This document shows, piece after piece, positions 1,753 to 56,986 of a DNA stretch of 64,000 nucleotides. A program made the translations under genes and the position numbers. This DNA is from Parcubacteria group bacterium (GTDB lineage: Bacteria > Patescibacteriota > Minisyncoccia > Moranbacterales > UBA2206), in assembly GCA_041664225.1 (NCBI GenBank), contig JBAYLE010000003.1, forward strand, positions 15,608 to 79,607, in the 5' to 3' direction. Below the pieces are notes generated by a model. It was not told where the DNA came from. It saw nothing but the letters and a program-made list of their open reading frames with translations, and ran no database searches. The first letter of the stretch is position 1. Every line of letters begins with the position of its first letter.

Positions 1753-1871
1753 AAAATAATTTACAATTTTCAATTTTCAATTTACAATCAATTTTCAATT
1801 ATTTAATTATCAATAACTTAAAATTTGAAAATTGGTTCATTGGAAATTCAATGAAAATTGATTACTGAGCA

Positions 1872-12771: not shown

Positions 12772-12921
12772 TAGTATTACTTTAAAGATAAACCTTTATT
12801 TCACGCCAGAAACTTTCGGGATAGGCTCTAAATTGCCAAATATCCAATATGTCTATAGTATAATAGTAACACACGATACTAATACATAAGCCCAAGGAAG
12901 TCAAGTCTCTTGTATACTTTT

Positions 12922-14025
12922 ATGATAATTTTAGGAATTGAAACTTCATGCGACGAAACCGCTGCTTCGGTAGTCAAGGCCGGCAAAAATGTCAAAATTT
13001 TGTCAAACATCGTATCGTCTCAAGTCAAACTGCATGCTAAGTGGGGCGGCGTAGTGCCCAATCTGGCAGCCAGAGAACATTTGAAAAATATTTTACCCGT
13101 AATCGAAATAAGCCTCGAAGAAGCTTCTGTAAAAATTAAAGATATTGATCTGATTGCTGTTACCAATGGACCAGGTCTGATTCCAGCCTTGCTCATCGGC
13201 ACCAATACAGCCAAGGCGCTCGCTTATGCCTGGGAAAAACCCTTGATTGGAGTGCATCATATTGAGGGACACATCTACGCTAATTTTATCGGGGATAAAA
13301 TTAGCGCAAGTTCAAAGTTCAAAGTTCAAAGTTCAAGGTTCCCGATTTTATGTTTGGTTGTTTCCGGCGGGCACACGCAATTAGTCCTAATGAAAGATCA
13401 TTTGAAATATAAAATTATCGGACAAACCTTGGATGATGCTGCCGGTGAAGCTTTTGATAAGGTTGCACGAATTCTAGGACTCGGTTATCCTGGAGGACCG
13501 GCCATTGCCGAGGCGGCGATGAAGTCAAAAATTAAAAGTGAAAAACTCAAAGTTCAAGGTTCAGCTTTCTTCCTTCCACGGCCAATGATTAATTCAAAAA
13601 ATCTCGATTTCTCTTTTTCCGGACTGAAAACTGCCGTTCTTTACACGGTCAAAAAAAATCCAGAGATATTGAGAAATAAAAAAATGCTAATTGATTTATG
13701 TTCCGAGTTTCAGCAGGCCGTTATCGATGTTTTGATTCATAAGACCCTGGCCGCCGCTGAAAAATACAATCCCAAAATGATAATGCTGGCGGGCGGCGTT
13801 TCTGCCAATGAAGAATTGCGCGATCAATTAAGCGCTTCTTTGAAAAAACATTTTCCAAATACAAAATACCGCATCCCCGAAACTAGATACAGTCTCGACA
13901 ATGCCGCCATGATAGCCAGCGCCGGATTTTTCCGCTGGCAAAAAATGAACAAGACTGAGCGAGAGAGCACTAGTTCAAATTGGAAAATATTAGAAACGGA
14001 TGCTAATTTAAAATTAAAACAATAA
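12922..14025 (+). CDS. tsaD: tRNA N6-adenosine threonylcarbamoyltransferase TsaD (Kae1/YgjD family). Start at MIILGIE.
   Basis: GIETSCDETA, HHIEGH, VVSGGHTQL, GGVSAN motifs. Two short in-frame insertions carry the repeat tcaaagttcaaggttc. Confidence 0.85.
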   Translation: MIILGIETSCDETAASVVKAGKNVKILSNIVSSQVKLHAKWGGVVPNLAAREHLKNILPVIEISLEEASVKIKDIDLIAVTNGPGLIPALLIGTNTAKALAYAWEKPLIGVHHIEGHIYANFIGDKISASSKFKVQSSRFPILCLVVSGGHTQLVLMKDHLKYKIIGQTLDDAAGEAFDKVARILGLGYPGGPAIAEAAMKSKIKSEKLKVQGSAFFLPRPMINSKNLDFSFSGLKTAVLYTVKKNPEILRNKKMLIDLCSEFQQAVIDVLIHKTLAAAEKYNPKMIMLAGGVSANEELRDQLSASLKKHFPNTKYRIPETRYSLDNAAMIASAGFFRWQKMNKTERESTSSNWKILETDANLKLKQ

Positions 14026-16777: not shown

Positions 16778-16850
16778 GCGCTGGTAGCTCAGTGGATAGA
16801 GCAGTAGCCTTCTAAGCTATTGGTCGCAGGTCCGATTCCTGCCCAGCGCA
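16778..16850 (+). tRNA. tRNA-Arg (anticodon TCT)
   Basis: Acceptor gcgctgg/ccagcgc, anticodon loop ctTCTaa. Confidence 0.8.
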
Positions 16851-16954
16851 CAGGAAAAGTGAAAAGTTCATAAAGTCTATAGAGTTCATAAAGTTGAAAT
16901 TCACTATTGCTTATTCCTTTTAACTTTAAAACTTTACAAACTTGTAACTCGATT

Positions 16955-17027
16955 GCACCCATAGCTCAGTTGGTAGAGCAGATCCCTCTTAAGGATATGG
17001 TCGTAGGTTCAAGTCCTACTGGGTGCA
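16955..17027 (+). tRNA. tRNA-Lys (anticodon CTT)
   Basis: Acceptor gcaccca/tgggtgc, anticodon loop ctCTTaa, T-arm gtaggttcaagtcctac. Confidence 0.8.
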
Positions 17028-17043
17028 CAAAAGTCTCCAGAGT

Positions 17044-17115
17044 GGCGGTCATCGTCTATCGGTAAGACATCGGTTTGTGGTACCGAGAAGCTGGGTTCAA
17101 CTCCCAGTGACCGCC
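17044..17115 (+). tRNA. tRNA-His (anticodon GTG) with the extra 5' G(-1)
   Basis: 8-bp acceptor stem including G-1 paired to discriminator C; anticodon stem tcggt/accga with loop ttGTGgt; T-arm ctgggttcaactcccag. Confidence 0.8.
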
Positions 17116-17141
17116 CCTATGTAGATTTTTACTTAAAAAAC

Positions 17142-17215
17142 GCGCCCTTAGCTCAGTGGATAGAGTGTCTGGCTTCGGACCAGAAGGTCGTAGGTTCGAA
17201 TCCTGCAGGGCGCAC
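17142..17215 (+). tRNA. tRNA-Arg (anticodon TCG)
   Basis: Acceptor gcgccct/agggcgc, anticodon loop ctTCGga. Confidence 0.75.
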
Positions 17216-19892: not shown

Positions 19893-20009
19893 TTTAAGTT
19901 TATAATGTTATAAAGTTGAAAGTTTATAAAGTATTTTCTTCAATATTAACACACTTTATAAACTTTATGAACTTTAAAAACTTTTTACTTTTAACTTTTA
20001 ACTTTTAAC

Positions 20010-21560
20010 TTATAGCTCTTCCCATTGATCTATGGAATACTCCGTGCCGGTCGGAAAATACGGCGGCGGACAATACAGCAATTGATTGTTGAAATTATAG
20101 ACGCGTCCTTCGAATCCGCTGACGCCGCTTTTGAAATAAGGCTGTAAAAAGGAAGCGATGGCTCCATTAAATGTCAGTGCATATTTTCCGCCCATACCCG
20201 TAACTATGCCAACCTTGCCGGTCTGCGCCAACAAAGCTGCATCCACCGTGAAATCGCTGGGACAATCATTTAAAACTAAGATGTCCTTTTGTGCCACTAA
20301 CCCCAGCATATTGTCGCAATTATAGTCGGCTAAGCGGATATCATAATCGCTAATACCGATATAGATGTCCGCATTGCCGCCCGATAAATCGGCGGCCGCA
20401 ACAGTTACTCTTCGATTATTCAAGCTTCCTTCGAACCAGACGTTGTCTTCGACAAAAATAACTCCGTTATCCACAATATTGTAATTGTTCAAACTTACGC
20501 ATTTTCCCCTGGCGGGCTTACTCCCTTGTATATGTGGACAGTCAGCAAGAGCACAGCATGAGGAAACAGTGCAAGCATCGCCATTGGTTCCACTGTATGA
20601 TCCCGAAGCTCCAGTAATGATTCCTTTATAATTGCTTATGGAATGATTGGGGTTAGCCGAATTAACCGTACAAATATCATAGGTTCCGTCAGTTTTTATA
20701 TTAATCCTTCTACCTACTCCATCACTATTAAAATATTTTCCCGATCCAGCCTCGGCCTCAGCTTTCATGTTGATAAAGTCAGCCGAGATTCCGGCGAAGC
20801 TCACTTCCGGCACCGGAAACTGACGTCCGCCTTCGAAGATGTCCGGACGATTAGGCACGGTTCCATCCGGCCAGGGATAGGAGGGCGCGTCATCTTCCAC
20901 GGCAGCCGCTGATTCATGCGTGTGCACTCCCAAACTTAAATCGCTTCCTCCGTGCGTCGGATCATCAAAGGACGGAAGCAAAGAGCTGACCGTATTGTGC
21001 GCCAATCCGTCAAACCGAATGCCGTTATTGGAATGGACCTTGCCAAAAACCTCCGCTTGATCGCCGAAATTCATAAAGCTGTTCGACAAAAATATGTATT
21101 CACTCCAAGATGGACGCCTGAAACGCACTCTGACTGCTCGTTGGACGTCCGGCGTTTTTACACTCTCTCCCGTGACAGTAATTGTCGCGATAGTTGAATT
21201 AGCGCCAGGTGGATCTAAATGGACCGAATAACTTCCCAGCTTATCCCCGGTCTCTGAATCGTTAAAATCTGCCGTATAATCGCCAGTAACGCCCAGAGTG
21301 GAACTGTCCTGCCAGAAAGTTTTTAGTTGCTGGGCGTCCATGCCATCGGTCGCGTGCGCCAAATACCAGCGATAATAATAAACTCCCGCCTCGGCGACCT
21401 GAAAAGCTTTCTCCCTCTCAACTCGATTAAAACTGAACTTCAATTGCATAACAATATAACTGATCATAGAAACAAGCAGAATCGAAACAACCGCCGTCAT
21501 GACTAGCGCATAAGCTACGGCTGATCCTCTTTTTGAATTTTTGTTTTTATAAATCAACAT
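20010..21560 (-). CDS. PilX-N-terminal-domain pilus-associated protein (large minor pilin/adhesin-like)
   Basis: N-terminal hydrophobic PilX_N-like segment GSAVAYALVMTAVVSILLVSM, large Gly/Ser/Thr-rich beta-rich body. Confidence 0.5.
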   Translation of the reverse strand: MLIYKNKNSKRGSAVAYALVMTAVVSILLVSMISYIVMQLKFSFNRVEREKAFQVAEAGVYYYRWYLAHATDGMDAQQLKTFWQDSSTLGVTGDYTADFNDSETGDKLGSYSVHLDPPGANSTIATITVTGESVKTPDVQRAVRVRFRRPSWSEYIFLSNSFMNFGDQAEVFGKVHSNNGIRFDGLAHNTVSSLLPSFDDPTHGGSDLSLGVHTHESAAAVEDDAPSYPWPDGTVPNRPDIFEGGRQFPVPEVSFAGISADFINMKAEAEAGSGKYFNSDGVGRRINIKTDGTYDICTVNSANPNHSISNYKGIITGASGSYSGTNGDACTVSSCCALADCPHIQGSKPARGKCVSLNNYNIVDNGVIFVEDNVWFEGSLNNRRVTVAAADLSGGNADIYIGISDYDIRLADYNCDNMLGLVAQKDILVLNDCPSDFTVDAALLAQTGKVGIVTGMGGKYALTFNGAIASFLQPYFKSGVSGFEGRVYNFNNQLLYCPPPYFPTGTEYSIDQWEEL

Positions 21561-21577: not shown

Positions 21578-22213
21578 TTATATTCCAAACCGATCATGAT
21601 CATTTAAATTTCTCATTTCCGCAAAAGATTGGATCTGCACATTGTCCGGCGCGTGGTTTGGATCGATATTCACATGTAAGGTGACTCGTACCAATCTGAC
21701 ATTAGGAACCGTGGCCGGCGTTGCAATCGGATTATTAACACTATCTTCTGGATAACTTGAATCATAATAAGCAAAAATTGGATTTCCCGTAGTATTAACG
21801 ACACGAGAAATAATGACTTGAGTCGTCCCGTCGCCTGACGCGTAAGTGATTGGAAAGCTGGAAGACGGCTCGCGAACTCCCAAAATAACATCTGACCCAC
21901 TGCGATATATATGGATCCTTTCCGTGACGCCGTCCCGATCATAATCGCAATAAACCACTATGTCATTGTCATTAGCAGAAACAACCGGGTAGGAACCATT
22001 GTCGCTTTGCCGCACTTCACGCAAGTAGCGCACAATCTGATTAACTCCCTGAGAAGCAGCCATAGACACTTGCCCCATTTCCAAAGTATATTTATTCTGT
22101 TGCCAAGAATTTTTAAACAGCATGGTAAAACCCAAAATGCCAATGGTAAATATAGCTATCGCCAGTAGCATCTCGATTATAGTCATTCCCTTGTAATTTT
22201 GTTTTTTCATCAT
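21578..22213 (-). CDS. Prepilin-type N-terminal cleavage/methylation domain protein (minor pilin, PilW-like)
   Basis: KG|MTIIEMLLAIAIFTIGILG class III signal. Confidence 0.7.
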   Translation of the reverse strand: MMKKQNYKGMTIIEMLLAIAIFTIGILGFTMLFKNSWQQNKYTLEMGQVSMAASQGVNQIVRYLREVRQSDNGSYPVVSANDNDIVVYCDYDRDGVTERIHIYRSGSDVILGVREPSSSFPITYASGDGTTQVIISRVVNTTGNPIFAYYDSSYPEDSVNNPIATPATVPNVRLVRVTLHVNIDPNHAPDNVQIQSFAEMRNLNDHDRFGI

Positions 22214-23583
22214 GTTTGCAAGTCAAGTTCAACTGTTTTTTCTTTTAACTCATTTTCATTGATAGTCACGCTTTCCGAATAATCAACCAATCCATCCGCC
22301 GTAACTGCAAGAGTATAATCACCATCCGTAAATGATACATCATCAGATCGCGGGAAAAAAGCCAGTCCATCTTTTGAGGTAACTGCGGTTTTATCATAGC
22401 CAGAACCATTAGTTAAACGAACGCTCGCCCCCTCCAACAGGCTGAGATCGTCCGCTCTAGAAATTGTCACTAGGAGAGCAGCCACATCTTTGCGGCTAAC
22501 TTTCACATTCATATCCAATGATCCTCCTGGCGCCAAAACGGCCGGCGAAACCGGATCGTACCCAACAACTTCATAGTCAGAATCATTAAGAGTAAAGGTG
22601 TAATTACCGGGATCGATAGAGCTGAAATTTTTTTCTCCGCTGGAATTAGTAGTATAATCCGCATCAGTGCTGTATTTAGGAACAGCCGGTGCCATCGGAT
22701 CTGCGTTATATTCGGTTCCGATTTGTCTTCCGCCGATAAGATGAAAATCGATATCCGGTACGCTATCTCCCTTGTAATCCTTTGTCTTTATGGATAAATC
22801 AGACAATTCATTCTGATAAATATTAATTGTATTCAAACCACCAGCCACCACAGAGGCATTCTCCGGAATAGGATTGTAACTAGTATCGGGATACGGAGGC
22901 AAGGAGGCAATGGTTTCATATCCGCTTTTTGTAACAGTAATAACGTATTTTTTTATTGATTCAGAAAGTCCAACCATCATCAGTCGCCCATAATTATCAG
23001 TAGAGTGTGTTTCATCGAGACCAGTATCACTATTTTGGATGCGAACCAAGCTCTGAGGAATAATCCCTCCCCCCTTGTCGCTGCTAACATTAATTACCAA
23101 AACGCCCTTGTTAGCTGTCGGCTGTTCGACGCCAGCCGGAACAAAACGAGAATTCATAGAGACTTTATATTGCCCGTTATTCCATGATACCGTTATTTTC
23201 ACATATTTATAATCAATAAAATCAACGTCATTCGGACTGCCACCCAATGTTCCGTCAAATGGATCGTCCTCATTTTTTATTTGCGTTAAAACATTGAAGC
23301 TTGCCCCGTTCCTGACAATATCTTCACTTTCATGCAGATTTCCGGCCGGATCGCCAGTGGTGTGAGCTATATCATCAAAGGCCAAGTTTCGCACAATCTC
23401 CATTTTTTCATTCGCCAAAGCTAACGCTGCCAAACGATTCTTGGAATTGATGATATACTGGGTACCCAAAGAATAAGAGCGATAAAAAGTTACCGTTACA
23501 ATAGAAAAGATAAACAGAAAAATCAAAGCCTCAATTAAAGTAAACGCTGGCCTAATTTTGTTTTTTGTTTTTTGTTTTTTCAT
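22210..23583 (-). CDS. Prepilin-type N-terminal domain protein, large (PilV-like minor pilin / tip-adhesin candidate)
   Basis: A|FTLIEALIFLFIFSIV class III signal followed by ~420 aa of beta-rich domains. Confidence 0.65.
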   Translation of the reverse strand: MKKQKTKNKIRPAFTLIEALIFLFIFSIVTVTFYRSYSLGTQYIINSKNRLAALALANEKMEIVRNLAFDDIAHTTGDPAGNLHESEDIVRNGASFNVLTQIKNEDDPFDGTLGGSPNDVDFIDYKYVKITVSWNNGQYKVSMNSRFVPAGVEQPTANKGVLVINVSSDKGGGIIPQSLVRIQNSDTGLDETHSTDNYGRLMMVGLSESIKKYVITVTKSGYETIASLPPYPDTSYNPIPENASVVAGGLNTINIYQNELSDLSIKTKDYKGDSVPDIDFHLIGGRQIGTEYNADPMAPAVPKYSTDADYTTNSSGEKNFSSIDPGNYTFTLNDSDYEVVGYDPVSPAVLAPGGSLDMNVKVSRKDVAALLVTISRADDLSLLEGASVRLTNGSGYDKTAVTSKDGLAFFPRSDDVSFTDGDYTLAVTADGLVDYSESVTINENELKEKTVELDLQT

Positions 23584-28055: not shown

Positions 28056-28235
28056 ATCGAGCATGTGAAATATTCTATTCAAATTCAAGAGAGTGAACGT
28101 TAAAAAAGTTGCTGGTCCGCCTCGGGGCAACCAGCAACTTTTAGTGAACGAGCGCGGAATTTGTTAGAATATTTCACCTGCTCGGACTTTTCTTTGGTTG
28201 CTTTTCTTTTCCTAGAAAAGAAAAGCAAGAAGCGG
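28056..28235 (+). repeat. Copy A of a ~150-200 nt structured repeat family (conserved loops, covarying stems)
   Basis: Shares atcgagcatgt(g/a)aaatat, gcgttaagaaa, the ggtccgcctcggggcaacc loop, acttttagtgaa, aatttgttag, cctgctcggacttttcttt and the ttttcctagaaaagaaaag hairpin with copies at 53323 and 52135. Confidence 0.7.
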
Positions 28236-31764: not shown

Positions 31765-31872
31765 AATTGTTTATTAAAATAATTGATTAGAAAAACTATT
31801 AAAAGTAATAAAATTTTACTATCCACTTAACCACCTGTCAATCAACTGTGCGACAAAAGACTTTTTTATTGT

Positions 31873-31930
31873 CAGACGAAGCGAGAGAAATAAAAATTTA
31901 TTTTTATTTTCAAACGAGTGCTGACAACAT
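31873..31930. repeat. Hairpin-bounded ~60-80 nt element, copy 1 (ttgtcag...agcgagagaaata...cgagtgctgacaaca)
   Basis: Near-identical ends shared with 55470-55548; termini ttgtcag/ctgacaa are inverted. Confidence 0.55.
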
Positions 31931-31942
31931 AATTTTCAAAAA

Positions 31943-34816
31943 TCAAAGATACTTCCCCGTCCAACTCCTTTTGCATTTTTTCAATTTGTCCGGTGTGCCG
32001 GCATAAACCACTTCGCCGCCCTTGTCCCCGCCTTCCGGCCCCAAATCAACCACCCAATCGGAATTGCGGATAACATCGACATTGTGTTCGACAACTAAAA
32101 CCGAATTGCCTTTTTCCACTAGTGCGTCCAAAACTTTCAGAAGTCTTTTCACATCGTCAAAATGCAAACCGATGGTTGGTTCGTCCAGAATATATAGGGT
32201 CTTGCCTGTGGATTTACGAGCCAGTTCCGTCGCCAACTTTATCCGCTGTGCCTCACCGCCAGAAAGATTGGTGGCGCTTTGGCCCAAACGCAGATATCCT
32301 AAGCCCACGTCTTCCAGAGTTTGCAATTTTTCCACGATTAGCGCGGATTTTTTGAAAAACCGTAAGGCGTAGGACACGCTCATATCCAAAACTTCAGCGA
32401 TATTCACGCCCTGATATTCAATGTCCAAAGTTTTTTGATTGTATCTGGTTCCATTACAGGCCTCACATTTAACATACATGTCCGGCAAAAGATGCATTTC
32501 GATTTTTTTGGTGCCATCGCCCTGGCAGACTTCGCAGCGCCCGCCCTTCATGTTGAAACTAAAGCGACTCGGAGCATAGCCCCGGCTTTTGGATTCTTCC
32601 GTATTCGCAAAAATATCCCGAATCAGTGAGAAAACCCCGGTATACGTAGCTGCGTTTGAACGCGGCGTTCTGCCGATCGGCGCCTGATCGATATTGATAA
32701 CTTTGTCGACATTATCCAGCCCCCTGACTCTTTTATGCAAGCCTGGCATTGCCTTGGCGCCAAAAAAGTACTTAGATAAAACTTTAGCCAGAATATCAGA
32801 AACCAGGGTCGATTTGCCCGATCCGGAAACACCAGTCATCGCCACAAATTTACCCAGTGGAATTTCTACATCGATATTTTTCAAGTTATGTTCCTGGGCT
32901 CCTATAATTTCGATAGACTTTTTATTGCCTTTGCGGAAACTTTTTTTCTCCGCCACTTTCTTCTTGCCAGTCAGATATTCCGCCGTGGACGTTTTTGATT
33001 TTAAGAGTTTTGCGAAATCGCCCTGAAAAATGACTTGACCGCCTTCCTCACCAGCTCCGGGACCCATATCAATGATCCAGTCAGCTTGGCGGATAATGTC
33101 CGCATCATGTTCAACCACAATCATTGAATTTCCTGCGTCTTTCAAGGCCTGCATAGTATTTATCAGCTTTTCGGTGTCGCGGTTATGGAGTCCGATCGAT
33201 GGCTCGTCCAAAACATAAGTGATGCCCATCAGTTCCGATCCGATCTGAGTAGCCAAACGGATCCGCTGTGCTTCACCGCCGGAAATCGAATTAGCGCCTC
33301 TGCTCAAAGATAAGTATTCCAAGCCTACATTGCAAAGAGCATCGGCTTTAAGCGCCATATCCTTGATCAATGGTTCAATTATTTTTTTCCGTCCGGGGTT
33401 CAATTCGATTTTTTTCAACTCTTCAAAGAATCCTTTCAATTTAACCAGATCCAGATGCACGACATCGTCGATGGATTTGTCAGCCACCAGCACCGATAAA
33501 TATTCTTTTTTTAATCTTTTGCCCTCACAGGCCGGACAGATTTTTTCCAGCATATACTTTTCCATATCGCCACGCACATAATCGGAAGTCGCCTCTTCAT
33601 ATTTTCGCTTGATCATAGGCAAAACACCCTCGAAAATCATTCGCACTTCCTTGACGCCCCCCATAGCATCCCGCTGCTGGATCGTAATTTCTTTCTGTTC
33701 CGGACCGTATAAAACAATCTCCAGCGCCTCTTTGGATAATTTTTTTATCGGTACATCCAAAGAAAAATCGTGTTTCCCTGCCAAGGCCCGTAAAATATTC
33801 AGATAATTTCCTTGTCCGCCTACCCGACCGTTGGATTTGCTCCATGGCAAAATCGCGCCTTCCGCCAAAGAAAGGTTTTTATTAGGCATAACCAAGTCGG
33901 CATCGACTTCTTTGGTGATACCCAAGCCGGAACAATGCGAGCAAGCACCTTCCGGATTATTAAAGGAGAAGTGTCTCGGCGTAATTTCGTTTACTCTGGT
34001 TTGACACCCATTGCAGACAAAGTCCCTATTGTACGTCCGATCCGCCTCTCCTTCTACTGAAATAATCAAAGATCCTCCGCCAACACGCAAGGCCGTCTCG
34101 ATCGAGTCCAATATTCTCTCTGTGTCCGGACTTTTAGCTTTGACTGAGAGGCGGTCAACCACTACTTCGATCTCACTTTCGATCTTGTCGCTAGCGACCA
34201 GGCTGGCTTCCGTCACCAGCATTATCTTTCCATTGAAACGGACGCGCGCGAATCCCAGCTGAGAGATACCGCGCAAATGATCCTTGTCGGTCGTCCGCCA
34301 GCTGGCGGAGCCGCTTTTTGCGGATTCTTTCGGTTTGGCCAATACGGCTATCTGCGTGTTGTCAGGCAAAGCAAAAATCTCATCTAGTATTTCCTGGTTG
34401 GTTTTTCTGAGCATCGGCGCCCCGCATTGCGGACAGTGCGGCGCTCCGATCTTGGCGAACAAAACACGGAGGTAGTCGTAGATCTCTGTCAAGGTTCCCA
34501 CGGTTGAACGCGGGCTCCTGCTTAAGCTTTTCTGGTCAATGGAAATAGTCGGACTTAGGTTTTCAATTTTGTCCACATCCGGCTTGGCACCGACATCCAA
34601 AAACTGCCGCGCGTATGATGACATACCCTCCAGATATCGGCGGTTGCCTTCCGCGTGCACCACATCAAAAGCCAATGAAGATTTACCCGATCCGGACAGC
34701 CCGGTGATCACCACTAGTTTGTCGCGCGGGATATCAATATCGATATTTTTTAAGTTATTGACCCTCGCTCCCCGGATAATAATTTTGTCCCTTTTGCAAT
34801 AAGTACCGTTCGCCAT
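31943..34816 (-). CDS. uvrA: Excinuclease ABC subunit A (full-length class I UvrA)
   Basis: Two ABC ATPase modules ([20 protein letters not shown]), zinc-finger cysteine clusters, LSGGEAQR signatures. Confidence 0.85.
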
Positions 34817-34882: not shown

Positions 34883-36235
34883 CTAGCTAAGCAGGTTCTT
34901 TCTGCGAAGTTTTTTGTGATATGTTATCGCAAACCGATGCGCTTCATCCATAATCCGCTTGATCAAATTTTTGTCATTGATAATGTTTTTTAAATTTGAA
35001 AATTTAGGAATTGAAAATTGATTGAAAATTGAAAATTGAAAATTGAGATTTTTGCGAGACTTTCCTTTGGCAATGGTAACCATTGGCATCTCTAAATTTA
35101 ATTCCTGCAATAATCTTTCAGCCATAAAAAGGTGCCCTTTCCCTCCATCCAACAAAATTAAATCTGGTTGCGGCCAATCATTTTGAAAACGGCGCAACAA
35201 AACTTCGCGCATCATACCCACATCATCTGTGCCTTCAACTGTTTTGATTTTAAATTTACGATACTGCGACTTGTCCGGTTCATTATTTTTGAAAACTACC
35301 ATCGAACCCACCGCATGAGCACCGGAAATGTTGGAAATATCATAAGCTTCAATTCTTATTGTTTCGGATTTTTGATTTATGATTTCTAATTTCTCATCGC
35401 TCGCGATGAGCGCCACATCACGGATGTGCTTCAGCGCAAAAACTTTATTCCTAGCGTCCGCTGCTTTTTCAAATTCATTATTTTTCGCGTAATTTTTCAT
35501 TTCTGTCTCTAGTTTTTTTATTAATCCTTTTTTTCGGCCTTCCAAAATCATTCTGATTCCACGAATATTTTTCATGTAATCCGCTTTAGAAATGGCGCCG
35601 GCATACGGCCCCGGACATCTGCCAATTTGAAAATCCAAACAGCCCCTCTCTGTTTTTTGATTATTGCTATGGAATGGAAAAATTTTTCGCAAAATTTTCA
35701 GCGCAATTTCCATTTGCTTTTTGGAAGTATAAGGACCAAAGGTCTTTGCAACCCTGACCCCCCTCTCCCTTTTTAGGGAGAGGGGCTGGGGGTGAGGGGG
35801 CAGATCCGTCGCTCTCAAAATCAGTACCCTCGGAAAATCTTCCTTAGTTATAACGAAATATGAAAATGACTTATCATCTTTCCCCATCGCGTTATACTTC
35901 GGCTGGAGTTTTTTGATCAGTTGCGCTTCCAAAATCAACGCCTCCAAAACCGAATCAGTTTCTCTCACTTCGATATCCGCAATCTGATCAATTGCATACT
36001 CGATCGGCCGATCCAAATTCCGCGCCGTAGCGTGTCGAAGCTTGGTGTCTTTTGGTCGTTTTGGTCGAGAGACACCGAGCTTCTTATCCGTAAGCGGCGT
36101 AGAAAAATACGACCCGACCCGGCTCCGCAAATTAGTCGCCTTCCCCACATACAAAACATCCCCGGCTTTATCCTTGAAAATATACACGCCAGGATTTTTG
36201 GGCAGCTTTAATATCTTAATTTTTAGGCTTGACAT
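34883..36235 (-). CDS. uvrC: Excinuclease ABC subunit C, short form (450 aa), carrying several in-frame repeat insertions
   Basis: N-terminal GIY-YIG (GVYIFKDKAGDVLYVGKATNLRSR), UVR domain, C-terminal endonuclease domain (AYDISN). Confidence 0.75.
   Translation of the reverse strand: MSSLKIKILKLPKNPGVYIFKDKAGDVLYVGKATNLRSRVGSYFSTPLTDKKLGVSRPKRPKDTKLRHATARNLDRPIEYAIDQIADIEVRETDSVLEALILEAQLIKKLQPKYNAMGKDDKSFSYFVITKEDFPRVLILRATDLPPHPQPLSLKRERGVRVAKTFGPYTSKKQMEIALKILRKIFPFHSNNQKTERGCLDFQIGRCPGPYAGAISKADYMKNIRGIRMILEGRKKGLIKKLETEMKNYAKNNEFEKAADARNKVFALKHIRDVALIASDEKLEIINQKSETIRIEAYDISNISGAHAVGSMVVFKNNEPDKSQYRKFKIKTVEGTDDVGMMREVLLRRFQNDWPQPDLILLDGGKGHLFMAERLLQELNLEMPMVTIAKGKSRKNLNFQFSIFNQFSIPKFSNLKNIINDKNLIKRIMDEAHRFAITYHKKLRRKNLLS
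34985..35050. repeat. GAAAATT heptamer tandem array inside the uvrC coding frame
   Basis: ggaattgaaaattgattgaaaattgaaaattgaaaattgag is nearly identical to the reverse complement of the array at 1760-1800; translated as NLNFQFSIFNQFSIPKF. Confidence 0.7.
35745..35791. repeat. Palindromic G/C-rich mini-insertion inside uvrC (in-frame)
   Basis: ccctctccctttttagggagagggg hairpin plus ctgggggtgagggggc; locally GC-rich; encodes LPPHPQPLSLKRERG. Confidence 0.55.
36038..36083. repeat. Palindromic mini-insertion with core cttttggtcgttttggtcgaga inside uvrC (in-frame)
   Basis: gaagcttggtgtc [ttttggtcgttttggtcgaga] gacaccgagcttc; same core as the element in uvrA2 at 38890-38944. Confidence 0.65.
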
Positions 36236-36754: not shown

Positions 36755-39667
36755 TTATTTTTTCAAAACCTCCCTCAAAAACTTTCCTGTATAACTCTCT
36801 TTATGATACTTTGCCACTTCTTCCGGTTCGCCGGTGACGACCACTCGGCCTCCCTCATCCCCGCCTTCAGGGCCAAGATCGATAATCCAATCAGCGGTTT
36901 TGATGACGTCCATATTATGTTCAATGACCACCACGCTGTTGCCTGCATCCACCAGGCGATTCAGAACTCCCAACAATTTTTTGATATCATCAAAATGCAA
37001 GCCTGTCGTCGGTTCGTCCAAGATGTATAAAGTATTACCGGTCGCCCGCCGGGAAAGTTCCGTCGCGAGTTTGATTCGTTGCGCCTCCCCGCCAGAAAGC
37101 GTAGTGGCCGCCTGCCCGAGCTGGATATACCCGAGTCCCACATCTTCCAAAACAGACAGCTTGTCATTGAGGTCATGATAATTCCCAAAAAATTCGCGCG
37201 CTTCCATAACGTTCATTTCCAAAACTTCAGCGATATTTTTCCCTTTATATTTTACATGCAGAGTTTCACTATTATATCTTTTGCCATGGCAAACATCGCA
37301 AGAGATAAAAACATCCGGCATAAACTGCATCTCAATTTTGAGCAGGCCTTGCCCCTGGCAATTGTCGCATCTTCCTCCGCTGACATTAAAAGAAAACCGG
37401 CCCGGCAGATAGCCCTTAGCTTTGGCATCTTTGGTCGCGGCAAAAATTTCTCGAATCTCGGAAAACATTCCAGTGTAAGTTGCCGGATTTGACCGCGGAG
37501 TGCGCCCGATCGGCGACTGGTCGATCATAATGACTTTGTCCACATGTTGCGTCCCCACAATTTCCGCGTGTTTCCCCGGCCGTTCCAGAGAATGCATCAG
37601 TTTGCTCGACAAAGATTTATATAAAATATCTTCCACCAGCGATGATTTGCCCGAACCGGAAACGCCCGTCACCACCGTCATGACTTTGAGCGGAAATTCC
37701 ACAGTAATATTTTTCAAATTATTCTCCCGCGCTCCCCGCACCACCAGCCATTTTTTGTTTTTGACCGGCCGGCGGAATTTCGGCACCTCGATTTTCAATT
37801 CTCCGCGCAAATATTTAGCCGTGATGGATTTGGGATGACCCATCACTTCCTGCGGACTACCTTGCGCCACTATTTCCCCGCCCAATTTTCCCGCACCCGG
37901 ACCGATGTCTACCAAATGATCTGCCTCGCGCATCGTCTCTTCATCATGTTCAATCACGATTAAGGTGTTTCCGATATCGCGCAATTGCAAAAGTGTGTTC
38001 AAAAGTTTCGAATTGTCACGCGCGTGCAGACCGATCGATGGCTCATCCAAAATATACAAAACCCCCACTAATTGCGATCCGATCTGGGACGCCAATCTGA
38101 TCCTTTGGGTTTCTCCACCCGCTAAAGTGTTAGCGGAACGCGCCAAAGTCAGATAATTCAATCCGACATTGTCCAAAAAACCCAGCCGCGCCACAATTTC
38201 TTTGCAAATTTTGCCGGCAATCTGTTTCTCTCGATCATTTAATTCCAACTCTTTAAAAAATTTCAACGAATCGCTTACGCTTACAGACGAAACTTCATGA
38301 ATATTTTTCCCACCTACTGTAACTAACAAAGTTTCAGGCTTGTAGCGCATTCCATGACAGGCCGAACATGGATTTTGCGACATATATTTTTCAATCCCCT
38401 CGCGCACCGCGTCTGAATCGGTTTTAAAATATCGTTCCTGCATAAAACCAACCACGCCCCGCCAGGACATATAAAATTTCCAGTTGGTTCCGGTCTTGGC
38501 GCGAATTGTAATCGGCACTTCCTCGGCATCTTTTTCTGAGATCATATCTTCGGCATCCCGCGCACCATATAATAATATATTTACTTTTTCTTTTGGTAAA
38601 TCACGCAGTCTGACATTATCCGAAATATGAAAATATTTCGCCACCGACAAAATCACCCCGCCATAATAATTATTCCTCTTGAAATTCCACGGCGCCAATC
38701 CGCCTTCGGAAATCGTTTTGGTCATATCCGGCATCACTAAATCCGGATCAATTTCTTTTTTGGTGCCCAAGCCTTCGCAGGTCGGGCAAGCTCCGTACGG
38801 AGAGTTGAAAGAAAAAAGCCGCGGCTCCAATTCTGGAAACTCGACATCATGATCCGGACAAGCTAATTTTTGATTATAAATTATTGAATCGGAGAGGTTC
38901 GACCTCTTTTGGTCGTTTCGGTCGAGAGAGGTCGAACCTCTTTTTATAATTTTGATTTTCACTAAACCATTGGAAAGTTTCAGCGCTTTTTCCACATCTT
39001 CAAAAATACGGGAAATATTTTGATCGTTTATTCCAATCGCGTCGATCACGATATCAATCTTGTGCATCTTGTAGCGCGCCAACGGAATTTTGGTTTTGGG
39101 ATTAAGCTCATATTTTTTACCATTGACATAAGCTTTGGAAAAGCCACGTTTATACATTTCTAAAAGCAAAGTTGAATATTCGCCTTTACGTCCGCGCACC
39201 ACCGGCGACAAAATCTCGATTGTTGCCCCCTCACCAATTTCCAGAATCTTGCTGACAATTTCATCCGTGGAAAGCTTGGAAATTTCTTGCCCATCAACCG
39301 GACAATGTGGGATGCCGATTTTGGCATACAGCAAACGCAAGTAATCGTGAATTTCCGTTACAGTTCCCACTGTAGAACGCGGATTTTGCGAAGCAGATTT
39401 TTGCGAAATAGAAATGGCCGGCGAAAGCCCTTCGATATAATCGACATCCGGTTTTTCCATCTGCCCCAAAAACTGTCGGGCATAGGCCGACAAGCTTTCC
39501 AAATATCTTCTCTGTCCTTCGGCAAAAATAGTATCAAAAGCCAGAGTCGATTTCCCCGACCCGGAAATACCGGTAAAAACAATAAATTTATCCCGCGGCA
39601 ACTCGAGATCGATATTTTTCAGATTATGTTCACGCGCGCCTTTTATAATAATTTTGTTCATAAACAC
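36755..39667 (-). CDS. uvrA: Second full-length UvrA paralogue (excinuclease ABC subunit A)
   Basis: Two ABC modules ([20 protein letters not shown]), [16 protein letters not shown] signatures, zinc-finger cysteines; contains an in-frame palindromic insertion. Confidence 0.85.
38890..38944. repeat. Palindromic mini-insertion with core cttttggtcgtttcggtcgaga inside uvrA2 (in-frame)
   Basis: gagaggttcgacctc [ttttggtcgtttcggtcgaga] gaggtcgaacctc; encodes [18 protein letters not shown]. Confidence 0.65.
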
Positions 39668-52083: not shown

Positions 52084-52134
52084 ATTTTAAAAATATAAAA
52101 TAATAGATCCTTCAGCCTACAAAATTTCCACAAA

Positions 52135-52284
52135 ATTCAAGCGAGCGAGCGTTAAGAAAGTTCCTTGATTCCGCCTCGGAAGCAGCCGGAACTTTTAGCT
52201 CGCAAGTGCATAATTTTGTCGGAAATTTTGTCTGGCTGAGAGTTCTTTTTGTTACTTTTTCTTGCGGAAAGAAAAAGTAAGGGG
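52135..52284 (+). repeat. Copy C of the structured repeat family (lacks the 5' arm), immediately upstream of trpS
   Basis: attcaagcgagcgagcgttaagaaa, ttccgcctcggaagcagcc loop flanked by agttcc/ggaact, cttgcggaaagaaaaagtaagg 3' end. Confidence 0.65.
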
Positions 52285-53322: not shown

Positions 53323-53522
53323 ATCGAGCATGTAAAATATGCTACTACAAATTGAAGCTTTTGAGCGTTAAGAAATTTTTAGGTCCGCCTCGGGGCAACC
53401 AAAAATTTTAGTGAAAAAGCTGAAAATTTGTTAGCATGTTTTGCCTGCTCGGACTTTTCTTTGTAACTTTCTTTTCCTAGAAAAGAAAGTTAGATCAGTA
53501 CTTGCGGAAAGAAAAAGTAAGG
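53323..53522 (+). repeat. Copy B of the structured repeat family, between trpS and the GT39 gene; its 3' end supplies the AAGGA RBS
   Basis: atcgagcatgtaaaatat, gcgttaagaaa, ggtccgcctcggggcaacc, cctgctcggacttttcttt, ttttcctagaaaagaaag, cttgcggaaagaaaaagtaagg. Confidence 0.7.
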
Positions 53523-55469: not shown

Positions 55470-55548
55470 GTTATTTATTGTCGAACAAAGCGAGAGAAAT
55501 AGACGCCACTGACGGACATTTCCGAGCGAGTGCTGACAACAAATTTTG
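55470..55548. repeat. Hairpin-bounded ~80-nt element, copy 2
   Basis: tattgtcgaacaaagcgagagaaata...cgagtgctgacaacaaatttt matches 31873-31930. Confidence 0.55.
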
Positions 55549-55564
55549 TTTTATAATTCCACTA

Positions 55565-56986
55565 TTAATCTAAACTTTCAACATTTACCCCAAAGCTCCA
55601 ATCAACATCTGAATGGGCATGCAGTAATTGGCTGAGATATTTTTTGAGTTCATCATATTTTTCTTGTGTTTGCGCTTCGAATTTTATAGTCAGATAGGGA
55701 CCATTTTGGGAATAGCGCACTACAAACATTGAGTCAGGTAGGTCAAGACGCACACCATCACCAGCTCTCTCGTCATCAATTATTTCGGCCTGCGGATAGT
55801 CTTTTTTTAGAATCTCACTAATTTTTGCGATAAAATGAGCTTTTTTATCATCCGCACATCCAATTTTTATCTCCGGGCTGGAAATATATTTCGGAAGATA
55901 ATCAACAACTTCTGACAGCGATTTGCCTGATTTGGCCAAATAGCTTAATAAACGAAATGTCGAATAAACTCCATCATCATGATTATAGAAGTCCGCTGAA
56001 AAAAAGAAGTGACCTGAAAGCTCACCAATAAAGGCGGCTTTCACTTCCTGGTTTTTCTTTTTCAAAAAGGAATGCCCGGTTCGCCACATAAACGGTACAC
56101 CGCCGCTTTTTTTAATCGTGTCTTCGACCACTTTTGAGCAAAGCGTGTTATACATTATTTTTTCTCCAGGATGATCGGCCAAAACATCAGCCGCGAATAT
56201 GGCCACTAATACATCATTCCAGATTATTCCCCCTTTGTCATCGACAATACCGACTCGATCTCCGTCTGCATCGTAAGAAAAACCGACGTCCGCCCTCTCT
56301 TCCAGAACTTTTGCTCGCAATCTTTCTGCCACGAATACTTCTGTCGGATCAGGCGTACCCAAAGGAAAAGCGGGGTCAATTTTGCAATTGCTTTCCACAA
56401 CCTCGCAACCAGCCTGACGCAAAAATTCCGGCACAATGGCTCCAGCTGTCGAATTTCCCGGGTCAACAACTACCTTAAATTTTTTGCCCAGCGGAATGCG
56501 CTTAGATATGTCGTTAAAATAATCTTGTGAAATATTTTTCTTTTCAATAATTCCTTCTTTTTCACCCTGTTCATAATCTTCATTTTCTACCATTTTGCGT
56601 AATTCCTGAATTCCATCACTCACCATAGTTTCCGAAAAATCATTGGCAAATTTGAACCCATTATATTCCGCCGGATTATGTGAAGCAGTGACATACGCTC
56701 CCCCCTTTGCATTTAAAAAATATTGCGCCCAATAAAAAGTTCCGACTAAAGTCATGCCGATATCAACAACATCGATTCCTGCCCAAGATAAGCCTCTGAT
56801 TAAAAATTGACTGTATTCCTCGCTAGTTGACCGACAATCCCTGCCAACAATGGCCCTGGAAATGCCATGCCGCTTCAAATAAGTTCCGTGTGCTTTCCCT
56901 AAATGTTCAACTATTTCGGGATTTAAATCTTTATCGACTACACCCCTAAGATCATAGCCCCGAAACATATTTGGATTTACTTGCAT
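55565..56986 (-). CDS. Phosphomannomutase/phosphoglucomutase (alpha-D-phosphohexomutase)
   Basis: Active-site TASHNP, metal-binding DADGDR, sugar-binding GELSGH. Confidence 0.85.
   Translation of the reverse strand: MQVNPNMFRGYDLRGVVDKDLNPEIVEHLGKAHGTYLKRHGISRAIVGRDCRSTSEEYSQFLIRGLSWAGIDVVDIGMTLVGTFYWAQYFLNAKGGAYVTASHNPAEYNGFKFANDFSETMVSDGIQELRKMVENEDYEQGEKEGIIEKKNISQDYFNDISKRIPLGKKFKVVVDPGNSTAGAIVPEFLRQAGCEVVESNCKIDPAFPLGTPDPTEVFVAERLRAKVLEERADVGFSYDADGDRVGIVDDKGGIIWNDVLVAIFAADVLADHPGEKIMYNTLCSKVVEDTIKKSGGVPFMWRTGHSFLKKKNQEVKAAFIGELSGHFFFSADFYNHDDGVYSTFRLLSYLAKSGKSLSEVVDYLPKYISSPEIKIGCADDKKAHFIAKISEILKKDYPQAEIIDDERAGDGVRLDLPDSMFVVRYSQNGPYLTIKFEAQTQEKYDELKKYLSQLLHAHSDVDWSFGVNVESLD

What the first reader, a model, noticed from the sequence alone, without database searches (positions are those of the whole stretch)
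13300..13570. In-frame repeat insertions in the essential tsaD gene
tsaD contains the tandem octamer agttcaaa repeated three times at 13308-13335. The 16-mer tcaaagttcaaggttc then occurs twice, at ~13320 and ~13545. Each adds ~12-15 residues (KISASSKFKVQSS and KSKIKSEKLKVQGSA) between conserved TsaD motifs. Together with the uvrA2/uvrC insertions, this points to a genome-wide tendency to tolerate, or even use, short repeat insertions in conserved enzymes.
Basis: seen in the sequence. Interest (0 to 1): 0.5.

Follow-up and report, generated by a model that had tools for sequence, protein, structure and literature searches.

The report
Seven-base repeats inside essential tsaD
Two surface loops of the essential tRNA-modification enzyme TsaD in this candidate-phyla-radiation bacterium are encoded by tandem arrays of a 7-base DNA unit read in all three frames, and these loops are repeat hotspots across the whole lineage, so they show how non-triplet repeats can persist inside essential genes.

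Summary
The repeat is real, but its unit is a heptamer, not an octamer. AAGTTCA occurs 4.9 times at 13308-13341. A decayed six-unit array of the same heptamer lies at 13522-13563. Both are in frame in tsaD (12922-14025). The exact 16-mer occurs twice and is read in different frames, so the identity is at DNA level.

Solved TsaDs lack about 10 residues at each site. AlphaFold gives low confidence only at these two loops.

In 80 related Moranbacteria/Parcubacteria genomes, both sites vary greatly in length and sequence. They carry heptamer arrays with species-specific units. Period 7 gives 63 arrays against at most 3 for any other period. Fifty of the 63 lie inside tsaD, a 50-fold excess in density.

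One related pair differs by exactly three units (21 nt). The same AAGTTCA array sits in frame in RuvC, L10, MnmA, UvrA and other proteins in metagenomes. UvrC of this window and its relatives show equivalent variable sites.

Best reading: these are heptanucleotide simple-sequence repeats, as known from cyanobacteria and Xanthomonas. They are generated at DNA level and survive in permissive loops only if stop-free and in frame.

This is a new variant of a known kind. The mechanism, the cause of the tsaD hotspot and any function remain inferred.

The parts
12922..14025 (+). tsaD coding sequence (367 aa plus stop), the host gene
   Evidence: ORF. TIGR03723 TsaD scores 398 bits. 100% identical to P0001, an NCBI Parcubacteria MAG TsaD. 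The AF2 model matches TsaD/YgjD structures with TM 0.81-0.88.
13308..13341 (+). Site-1 heptamer array, (AAGTTCA) x4.9, near perfect. Encodes SSKFKVQSSRF.
   Evidence: TRF period 7, 96% matches, score 61. Period-7 self-match array.
13294..13338 (+). Site-1 loop segment, residues D125-R139 (DKISASSKFKVQSSR), between HHIEGH and FPILCLVVSGGHT. About 8 residues longer than the modal length in relatives.
   Evidence: Gap of 10-11 residues in solved TsaDs. AF2 pLDDT below 50 for residues 125-136. Modal site-1 length in 78 relatives is 9 aa against 17 here.
13522..13563 (+). Site-2 decayed array of the same heptamer, six units. Encodes KSKIKSEKLKVQGS.
   Evidence: Sequence. 82% identical to the site-1 array over 34 nt (family D3). 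Alignment. AF2 pLDDT below 50 for residues 206-213. Gap of 9-10 residues in solved TsaDs.
13326..13341 (+). First exact copy of the 16-mer TCAAAGTTCAAGGTTC, read as (V)QSSRF
   Evidence: frame derived from the coordinates.
13547..13562 (+). Second exact copy of the 16-mer, read in another frame as LKVQGS
   Evidence: frame derived from the coordinates.
34996..35046 (-). Element of the same class in uvrC: a (CAATTTT)n array in frame, encoding NLNFQFSIFNQFSIPKFSN
   Evidence: TRF period 7, 8.1 copies. Translation. 50 nt at 90% identity to 1764-1813, including an irregular CAAT unit.
1758..1814 (+). Intergenic copy of the uvrC heptamer element, in opposite orientation
   Evidence: TRF period 7, 8.4 copies. 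Inverted pair I1. Alignment.
19979..20011 (+). Intergenic heptamer array (AACTTTT) x4.7. The unit has stop codons on both strands.
23556..23580 (-). Heptamer array (AAAAAAC)n at the N-terminus of ORF 22210-23583 (MKKQKTKNK...)
   Evidence: The unit is stop-free on both strands.

Best explanation
The two tsaD 'insertions' are heptanucleotide simple-sequence-repeat arrays. They belong to the class known as long SSRs, or STRRs in cyanobacteria. They sit in frame in two permissive, probably disordered surface loops of TsaD.

Shown:
- The arrays are DNA-level objects. Their period is 7 nt, they lack codon periodicity, and the same 16-mer is read in two frames.
- Both loops are lineage-wide variable sites that hold such arrays, with species-specific units.
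- Period 7 is the only tandem period enriched in this window and in its relatives.
- Orthologous arrays can differ by exactly three units (21 nt).
- Every orthologue examined is in frame and free of stops.

Inferred:
- The arrays arise and are re-homogenised by replication slippage or template switching that favours a 7-nt register. This was proposed for prokaryotic heptamer SSRs by Mrazek et al. 2007, as summarised in PMC4679880.
- In an essential gene, selection passes only units without stop codons in all three frames, in the sense orientation. It also passes only net length changes that are multiples of 3 nt. For changes made of whole units that means three-unit steps.
- This filter would explain the narrow size class of about 4-5 copies (28-35 nt).
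- The two tsaD arrays are copy-related, through intragenic template switching or conversion, because they share the terminal AAGTTCAAGGTTC variant.
- The encoded K/S/Q/F/V-rich peptides are passengers that catalysis tolerates. They are not conserved functional motifs.
For: Period and array structure:
- TRF reports period 7.
- Window census: 5 arrays at period 7 and 0 at periods 4-6 and 8-15.
- In 1.29 Mb from 80 Moranbacteria/Parcubacteria loci there are 63 arrays at period 7, at most 3 at any other period from 2 to 24, and 0 in shuffles.
- Self-match at lag 7 is 0.48 in both tsaD sites against 0.256 in the rest of the gene. The inserts show no lag-3 signal.

The tsaD hotspot:
- 50 of the 63 arrays lie in tsaD, a 50-fold higher density. 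They occur in 36 of the 80 genes and cluster at gene positions 376-485 and 562-729 nt.
- Units differ by species but the array position is conserved.
- 37 of the 50 arrays are 28-35 nt long.

Dynamics:
- L064 and L079 differ at site 1 by a single 21-nt gap, equal to three units.
- L057 and L061 are 95% identical in the gene body but 53% and 44% identical at the two sites.

Selection filter:
- AAGTTCA is stop-free only in the sense orientation. The intergenic unit AACTTTT has stops on both strands.

Structure:
- AF2 pLDDT falls below 50 only at residues 125-136 and 206-213.
- Solved TsaDs lack these residues.

Generality:
- (AAGTTCA) of about 4.7 copies sits in frame in 5'-3' exonuclease, L10, RuvC, MnmA, a MiaB-like protein, PyrF, MurG and UvrA.
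- Metagenome contigs with one such array carry 73 further period-7 arrays with other units.

Literature:
- Heptamer SSR excess and a preference for four units are reported in PMC4692102 and PMC4679880.
Against: - Plain neutral slippage does not explain why array density in the tsaD loops (about 4 per kb of loop DNA) far exceeds that in the flanking DNA. Flanks hold 13 arrays in 1.2 Mb, 8 of them outside long ORFs.
- It also does not explain why intergenic arrays show the same 26-31-nt size class without any frame constraint.
- Dispersed near-identical copies with shared irregularities look copied rather than independently expanded. Examples are uvrC versus the intergenic site, and tsaD site 1 versus site 2.
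- In RuvC, L10 and tsaD site 2 of L001, L036, L033 and L003, a perfect array occupies a segment of normal length. This needs overwriting or paired contraction and expansion, not simple insertion.
- There are no read-level data, so ongoing slippage is not shown.
- The cause of the 7-nt register is unknown.
Confidence: 0.65

Rival explanations
1. The arrays are tiny mobile or copy-pasted DNA cassettes of about 30-50 nt, sometimes with nested GC-rich palindromes. In this reading they are inserted at, or converted into, preferred sites in housekeeping genes, in analogy to Rickettsia palindromic elements or the small dispersed repeats of Nostoc. They would not be products of in-situ slippage.
For: - uvrC 34996-35045 and intergenic 1764-1813 are 90% identical over 50 nt and share an irregular CAAT unit.
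- tsaD sites 1 and 2 share the exact 16-mer, including the A-to-G variant unit.
- A 38-nt element is shared by uvrC and uvrA2 in different frames.
- A discrete core, AGTTCAA x4 plus AG, recurs with unrelated flanks in many genes and contigs.
- UvrC homologue P0277 carries DANLRINANPRIAN at both of its variable sites.
- GC palindromes are nested inside arrays. In L001 site 1, CAAAGCTCAAAGTC flanks CCTGCCTCGCCGGCAGGCGGG on both sides.
- The sites of L057 and L061 were replaced wholesale in a gene that is otherwise 95% identical.
Against: - The arrays have no terminal inverted repeats and no consistent target duplication. I did not look for an associated transposase.
- Units form a near-continuum of variants at an orthologous position and phase, which suggests in-situ evolution.
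- The L064/L079 difference is a clean three-unit expansion or contraction within an array.
- The replacement in L057/L061 can be explained by allelic recombination, because the segment between the sites is also more diverged: 87% against 95%.
Confidence: 0.25
2. The repeat-encoded loops are selected functional additions to TsaD, and to UvrC and others. They might be extra basic surfaces for tRNA or partner binding. Alternatively they might be deliberately hypervariable loops under diversifying selection, for example to escape inhibitors from hosts, competitors or phages.
For: - Array density in tsaD is 50-fold higher than in flanking DNA.
- The two variable sites are kept across 80 species.
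- Site 2 lies about 12 residues upstream of the FSFSGLK motif, which contacts the tRNA D-stem in the TsaBD-tRNA structure (PMC13276492).
- The peptides are Lys-rich.
- Close relatives differ completely at these sites.
Against: - Neither sequence nor length is conserved: site 1 ranges from 6 to 51 aa and site 2 from 11 to 62 aa. Many relatives have the short forms of 9 and 13 aa.
- 44 of the 80 genes have no intact array.
- Both loops have low or only moderate AF2 confidence and no predicted secondary structure.
- Perfect DNA repeats read in three frames, and one 16-mer read in two frames, cannot be products of selection on the protein.
- No spatial contact with tRNA or partner proteins was computed.
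Confidence: 0.1
3. The heptamer array is a contingency (phase-variation) locus. In this reading, single-unit slippage switches tsaD on and off by frameshift.
For: A 7-nt unit is not a multiple of three, so changes of one unit would shift the frame. Heptanucleotide phase-variable loci exist in Haemophilus (PMC2651432 and PMC8262952, listed).
Against: - TsaD is a single-copy core enzyme for t6A.
- All 78 orthologues in which both sites were located are open and in frame across both sites.
- The one clear length difference seen is three units.
- The arrays lie mid-gene, not near the 5' end.
Confidence: 0.03
4. The repeats are a chance similarity or an assembly artefact.
For: The genome is AT-rich (about 40% GC), which raises the chance of short matches.
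Against: - 0 of 100 shuffles reach the observed number of matches, and shuffles contain 0 arrays.
- The identical protein is recorded from NCBI, JGI and ENA sources.
- The same architecture appears in 80 independent assemblies.
Confidence: 0.01

Closest known systems
Heptanucleotide long SSRs of prokaryotes: cyanobacterial STRRs, GGGNATC repeats of Xanthomonas and Nostoc (PMC4692102), and TAACTGA repeats of Beggiatoaceae (PMC4679880)
   Same: - Tandem head-to-tail 7-nt units.
- Period 7 is specifically over-represented among tandem periods.
- Many loci per genome.
- A clear preference for about four units.
- Polymerase slippage in a 7-nt register has been proposed as the cause.
- Orientation within ORFs is limited by stop codons, as noted for TAACTGA.
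   Different: [quoted passage not shown]
- Here the arrays are concentrated inside essential genes, in frame, at conserved variable sites, with many different A/T-rich units.
- The G-quadruplex explanation for the four-unit preference cannot apply to AAGTTCA.
Rickettsia palindromic elements (RPEs)
   Same: Repetitive DNA is inserted in frame into unrelated housekeeping genes at positions compatible with protein fold and function (PMC10969869).
   Different: RPEs are palindromic, MITE-like elements of about 100-150 bp that encode a conserved peptide. The elements here are tandem heptamer arrays of about 30 nt, with no inverted repeats and no fixed reading frame.
Tandem repeats of Borg elements that create intrinsically disordered regions (PMC9879509)
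   Same: Perfect, rapidly evolving, A-rich nucleotide tandem repeats inside ORFs add low-complexity, probably disordered segments. Slippage is discussed as the origin.
   Different: All Borg repeats within ORFs have unit lengths divisible by three. Here the unit is 7 nt, so each unit is read in all three frames and only three-unit changes keep the frame. The hosts are core enzymes of a reduced bacterial genome.
Small dispersed repeats embedded in tandem heptameric repeats in Nostoc (Elhai et al. 2008, Genome Research; recalled from memory, not read here)
   Same: Short hairpin-forming elements are nested within heptamer arrays. Relatives here show GC-rich palindromes nested in tsaD and uvrC arrays.
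   Different: The phylum is different, and the Nostoc elements are not described as in-frame inserts in essential enzymes. No secondary-structure or covariation test was done here.

Membership tests
TsaD (t6A threonylcarbamoyltransferase, TIGR03723 / Pfam PF00814) | Full-length match to the equivalog model above its curated cutoff | tested here: met
   398 bits against a cutoff of 296.1, covering residues 3-339 and profile positions 1-313 of 314.
TsaD (t6A threonylcarbamoyltransferase, TIGR03723 / Pfam PF00814) | Conserved metal and nucleotide motifs (HxxxH, SGGH, GYPGGP, FSFSGLK) and the TsaD fold | tested here: met
   H113, H117, S148-H151, G191-P193 and S231-K236 are invariant in alignment A1. 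AF2 pLDDT is 88.6. Foldseek TM is 0.81-0.88 to E. coli and Salmonella TsaD.
Heptanucleotide long SSR / STRR-like tandem repeat | Head-to-tail copies of a 7-nt unit, three or more copies | tested here: met
   4.9 copies at 96% matches, plus a second decayed six-unit array.
Heptanucleotide long SSR / STRR-like tandem repeat | Period 7 specifically enriched over other periods in the same genome or lineage, with several different units | tested here: met
   Window: 5 arrays at period 7 against 0 at other periods. 80 relatives: 63 against at most 3, with 35 canonical units. Metagenome contigs: 73 against at most 3.
Heptanucleotide long SSR / STRR-like tandem repeat | Copy number varies between related genomes | tested here: inconclusive
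   One species-level pair differs by exactly three units. No strain-level or read-level data are available. The P0001 cluster has a single member.
MITE / Rickettsia-palindromic-element-like mobile insert | Terminal inverted repeats or a palindromic structure, with target-site duplication | tested here: not met
   The tsaD arrays are purely direct repeats, and no inverted repeat involving 13290-13580 was reported. Dispersed copies do exist, so copying is not excluded.
Phase-variable contingency locus | Out-of-frame alleles produced by changes of single units | tested here: not met
   All 78 orthologues in which both sites were located are in frame across both sites. The observed step is three units. 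Population reads were not testable.
Known structured RNA overlapping the region | Rfam match at the gathering threshold | tested here: not met
   Only eight tRNAs were found in the window, and none in tsaD.

The most novel reading that the evidence does not exclude
Moranbacteria, and perhaps many Patescibacteria, may have a dedicated DNA-level process, possibly enzyme-driven, that writes and rewrites heptamer arrays of about four units into defined variable sites of core enzymes such as TsaD, UvrC and UvrA. Changes would be restricted to three-unit steps. This would give programmed hypervariability of the surface loops of essential proteins, for example to evade inhibitors from hosts or phages. 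It would not be passive slippage followed by selection.
Probability: 0.12. Interest if true: 0.85.

Novelty: new variant of a known kind. Interest (0 to 1): 0.6.

Why it matters
Non-triplet microsatellites are expected to be purged from essential coding sequence, because changes of single units shift the reading frame.

Here 7-nt arrays are concentrated about 50-fold inside an essential gene. They are read in all three frames. In the one clear case, they change in three-unit steps.

This has four consequences:
- It gives a concrete natural system for asking why 7 nt is the favoured slippage register in bacteria, a question open since heptamer excess was noted in 2007.
- It shows how low-complexity loops are born in the reduced proteomes of candidate-phyla-radiation bacteria.
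- It raises the question of whether such loops are neutral passengers or a source of rapid surface variation.
- It has practical weight for annotation, alignment and phylogeny of Patescibacteria marker genes. These variable sites create alignment noise and apparent insertions.

Tried and rejected
1. Octamer unit: rejected. TRF and self-match both give period 7.
2. Beta-hairpin idea. The peptide KFKVQSSKFKV looks like strand-turn-strand, and in RuvC and MnmA the array coincides with native hairpins. For TsaD, however, AF2 predicts coil. Confidence is low in the window protein and about 80 in P0004, which has a perfect site-2 array. The idea is not supported for TsaD.
3. Peptide search with (KFKVQSS)n, meant to show the taxonomic spread of host proteins. 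It returned only short spurious ORFs over long arrays, two of them named Flavobacteriales and Pseudomonas. It was uninformative about hosts.
4. Genome-wide search for the 16-mer within the source genome: not possible. 
5. Literature search for heptamer arrays in Patescibacteria or the candidate phyla radiation: none found in the library. Absence from this library is not proof of novelty.
6. Rfam: nothing in tsaD.
7. An autoregulatory idea, that ANN-rich codons in the t6A enzyme gene act as a sensor. I considered it but did not pursue it, because ANN codons are common in this AT-rich genome.
8. Strain-level heterogeneity: the 90% cluster of P0001 has one member, so no alleles could be compared.
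Full report
**1. What is in the sequence**

The ORF at 12910-14025 (+), with ATG at 12922, encodes a 367-aa protein. It is 100% identical to an NCBI Parcubacteria MAG TsaD. It passes the TsaD equivalog model with 398 bits against a cutoff of 296.

Tandem Repeats Finder reports a period-7 array at 13308-13341: consensus AAGTTCA, 4.9 copies, 96% matches. Three units make 21 nt and encode KFKVQSS.

The 16-mer TCAAAGTTCAAGGTTC occurs exactly at 13326-13341 and 13547-13562. With up to three mismatches there are 5 hits against 0.86 expected, and 0 of 100 shuffles reach 5.

The second site is itself a decayed array of the same unit: AAGTCAA|AAATTAA|AAGTGAA|AAACTCA|AAGTTCA|AGGTTCA, at 13522-13563. It is 82% identical to the first array over 34 nt.

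From the coordinates, the shared 16-mer is read as (V)QSSRF at site 1 and as LKVQGS at site 2. These are different frames. The identity is therefore a property of the DNA, not of the protein.

**2. Are these insertions?**

Against solved TsaDs from E. coli, Salmonella and Aquifex, the query has 10-11 extra residues between HHIEGH and FPxxxLxVSGGHT (site 1). It has 9-10 extra residues between GYPGGP and PRPM (site 2).

An AlphaFold2 model built on 40 homologues is confident overall: pLDDT 88.6, pTM 0.86, and TM 0.81-0.88 to TsaD/YgjD structures. Exactly two segments fall below pLDDT 50. They are residues 125-136 (DKISASSKFKVQ) and 206-213 (SEKLKVQG). Both repeat-encoded segments are thus predicted as unstructured surface loops.

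**3. The same two sites in relatives**

A scan of GTDB species representatives returned 80 tsaD loci, most with up to 10 kb of flank on each side (shorter where the contig ends). They come from Moranbacteria and Parcubacteria genomes and total 1.29 Mb.

In 78 genes I could delimit both sites. Site 1 ranges from 6 to 51 aa, with a mode of 9; the window has 17. Site 2 ranges from 11 to 62 aa, with a mode of 13; the window has 18.

Many inserts are direct translations of heptamer arrays:
- KFKVQSS = (AAGTTCA)3
- KFKIQNS = (AAATTCA)3
- ISNFKFQ = (ATTTCAA)3
- ISNFQFP = (ATTTCCA)3
- NPKSQIP = (AATCCCA)3

These are shown.

Pooled over all genes, DNA self-match at lag 7 is 0.48 at both sites. It is 0.41-0.44 at lag 14 and 0.38 at lag 21. 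In the rest of tsaD it is 0.256. The inserts lack the lag-3 codon signal that the rest of the gene shows.

At site 1 many species share one architecture: GATAAAATTAGCG[TC]AA, then about four units, then often ACAAATTCAAAATTC. The unit differs by species:
- GTTCAAA in the window
- TTTCCAA in L019, L027 and L030
- ATCTCAA in L057
- ATCCCAA in L036
- AGTCAAA in L021, L043 and L060
- ACTCGAA in L053
- TTTCGAA in L071

These are listed.

**4. Period 7 is special, and tsaD is a hotspot**

I applied one fixed criterion, a self-match score of at least 14.
- The window has five arrays at period 7 and none at periods 4-15.
- The 80 loci have 63 arrays at period 7, at most 3 at any other period from 2 to 24, and none in shuffled sequence.

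Fifty of the 63 lie inside tsaD, which makes up 7% of the DNA. That is a 50-fold higher density. They occur in 36 of the 80 genes and cluster at gene positions 376-485 and 562-729 nt, with a few near 990.

Thirty-seven of the 50 arrays are 28-35 nt long, about 4-5 copies. The 13 arrays outside tsaD are of similar size.

**5. Dynamics**

L064 and L079 differ at site 1 by a single 21-nt gap. This is exactly three AAATTTC units, giving 1.9 against 4.9 copies.

L032 and L050 share the tail of the insert. Their homogenised units differ, however: CAAAGAT against CAAGAAT.

L057 and L061 are 95% identical at nucleotide level in the gene body. They are only 53% and 44% identical at the two sites, and 87% identical in the segment between them. 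This is consistent with a recombination tract or wholesale replacement.

Perfect arrays at site 2 in L001, L036, L033 and L003 sit in a segment of the modal length of 13 aa. They overwrite native sequence rather than add length.

**6. Generality beyond tsaD**

*Within the window*
- uvrC (34883-36235, minus strand) carries an in-frame (CAATTTT)n element encoding NLNFQFSIFNQFSIPKFSN. Its 50-nt core is 90% identical to an intergenic copy at 1764-1813, including an irregular CAAT unit.
- A 38-nt element is shared by uvrC (36048-36085) and uvrA2 (38905-38942). It is read as KKLGVSRPKRPKD in one gene and as [15 protein letters not shown] in the other.

*UvrC in relatives*
- Relatives have two variable sites of their own: SYF...RPIE, and AKGxxRK...NLIKxIMDEAHRFA.
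- These hold heptamer-type peptides and nested GC-rich palindrome peptides such as PAGRQ and PSPQPSPKGRGG.
- One homologue, P0277, carries DANLRINANPRIAN at both sites.

*Metagenomes*
- In low-GC contigs a discrete array of 30-35 nt sits in frame, with unrelated flanks, in 5'-3' exonuclease, ribosomal protein L10, RuvC, MnmA, a MiaB-like enzyme, PyrF, MurG, UvrA and others.
- In RuvC the array-encoded EVQSSKFKVQSY aligns without a gap to the E. coli segment RQVGRQLSYLGS.
- L10 and MnmA also show no net gain against their Pfam profiles. The direct PDB alignment of MnmA, however, shows a 4-residue gap just after the array.
- The same contigs carry 73 further, independent period-7 arrays with other units, against at most 3 at other periods.

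**7. Selection filter**

A heptamer array is read in all three frames, so the unit must be cyclically free of stop codons. AAGTTCA passes only in the sense orientation. The intergenic unit AACTTTT (19979-20011) fails on both strands.

All orthologues in which the sites were located are open and in frame across both sites.

**8. Interpretation**

The best-supported reading is that these are heptanucleotide long SSRs. Excess of heptamer SSRs in prokaryotes is known, as is a preference for four units. A 7-nt polymerase-slippage register has been proposed as the cause (PMC4692102 and PMC4679880).

What differs here:
- The arrays are concentrated inside essential genes, at conserved permissive loops.
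- They are read in three frames.
- They change by three-unit steps.
- The G-quadruplex rationale for four units cannot apply.

Which steps are shown and which are inferred:
- Shown: the DNA-level nature of the arrays, the lineage-wide variable sites, the specificity of period 7, the in-frame filter, one three-unit step, and dispersed copies.
- Inferred: slippage or template switching as the generator; cycles of 21-nt contraction and expansion as the cause of homogenised arrays of constant size; a copy relationship between tsaD sites 1 and 2; and neutrality of the peptides.

Not explained:
- The 50-fold hotspot in tsaD relative to flanking and intergenic DNA.
- The same size of about 30 nt in intergenic arrays.
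- The cause of the 7-nt register.

**9. Rivals**

- A copy-paste mini-element model is supported by the dispersed, irregular copies and the nested palindromes. It lacks the structural hallmarks of a mobile element. I give it 0.25, and it is not exclusive of slippage.
- Adaptive or diversifying loops are suggested by the hotspot and by the closeness in sequence of site 2 to the FSFSGLK element that binds the tRNA D-stem (PMC13276492). Lack of any conservation and the low predicted order argue against it. I give it 0.1.
- Phase variation (0.03) and artefact or chance (0.01) are disfavoured.

**10. Comparison and novelty**

The closest known kinds are cyanobacterial, Xanthomonas and Beggiatoaceae heptamer SSRs, Rickettsia palindromic elements and Borg tandem repeats. 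The Borg repeats differ in that all their units within ORFs are divisible by three.

I found no report of heptamer arrays in Patescibacteria proteins in the searchable library. I class the finding as a new variant of a known kind.

Noticed in passing
window 36048-36085 (uvrC) and 38905-38942 (uvrA2), minus strand: A 38-nt dispersed element (84% identical, containing a 9-nt repeat CGACCAAAA x2) lies in frame in two DNA-repair genes but in different reading frames. It reads KKLGVSRPKRPKD in one gene and [15 protein letters not shown] in the other.
   Followed up: partly
window 34996-35045 (uvrC, minus strand) and 1764-1813 (intergenic, downstream of a ClpB-like gene): A 50-nt heptamer (CAATTTT) element is present in two copies, 90% identical, sharing an irregular CAAT unit. 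One copy is coding and one is intergenic.
   Followed up: yes
UvrC homologues P0241-P0300 (alignment): UvrC of Moranbacteria and Parcubacteria has two hypervariable sites, after SYF and after AKGxxRK. They are filled with heptamer-type peptides and GC-palindrome peptides. P0277 has the same peptide, DANLRINANPRIAN, at both sites.
   Followed up: partly
L001 tsaD site 1; also L002, L038, L061, L009, L070, L039, L055, L057 and L019: Short GC-rich palindromes are nested in or beside the heptamer arrays of relatives' tsaD. In L001, CCTGCCTCGCCGGCAGGCGGG is flanked on both sides by CAAAGCTCAAAGTC. This resembles small hairpin elements embedded in heptamer repeats.
   Followed up: partly
window 16863-16895 and 19953-19984: Period-9 arrays (AAAGTTCAT / ACTTTATAA) form an inverted pair that is 88-91% complementary. 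One lies next to a cluster of tRNA genes (16778-17214) and the other beside the intergenic heptamer array.
   Followed up: no
window 28080-28196, 53348-53463 and 52133-52162: A conserved non-coding element of about 120 nt, 77-87% identical, occurs in two full copies and one partial (30-nt) copy. It contains GGTCCGCCTCGGGGCAACC. It has no Rfam match at the gathering threshold. It may be an undescribed leader or regulatory RNA.
   Followed up: no
window 31862-31935 and 55471-55547: Two conserved blocks of about 30 nt (83-87% identical) lie just downstream of uvrA (31943-34816, minus strand) and of ORF 55565-56986 (minus strand). They may be a shared 3' element.
   Followed up: no
window 23556-23580 (minus strand): A heptamer array (AAAAAAC)n encodes the N-terminus MKKQKTKNK of ORF 22210-23583, a protein with a CarboxypepD_reg domain.
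   Followed up: no
metagenome loci L090, L093, L100 and L176: On higher-GC contigs, (AAGTTCA)n arrays are followed by their own inverted copy (TTTGAACTTTGAAC). This forms long hairpins in non-coding DNA. Many arrays alternate AAGTTCA with AAGGTTCA-type units.
   Followed up: no
L057 versus L061: Two tsaD genes are 95% identical in their N- and C-terminal parts. They are 87% identical in the middle and have unrelated inserts at both sites, which suggests a mosaic or recombinant gene.
   Followed up: partly
window 31943-34816, 34883-36235 and 36755-39667: Two uvrA paralogues flank uvrC on the minus strand, and 125-nt segments are conserved between the paralogues (family D1).
   Followed up: no
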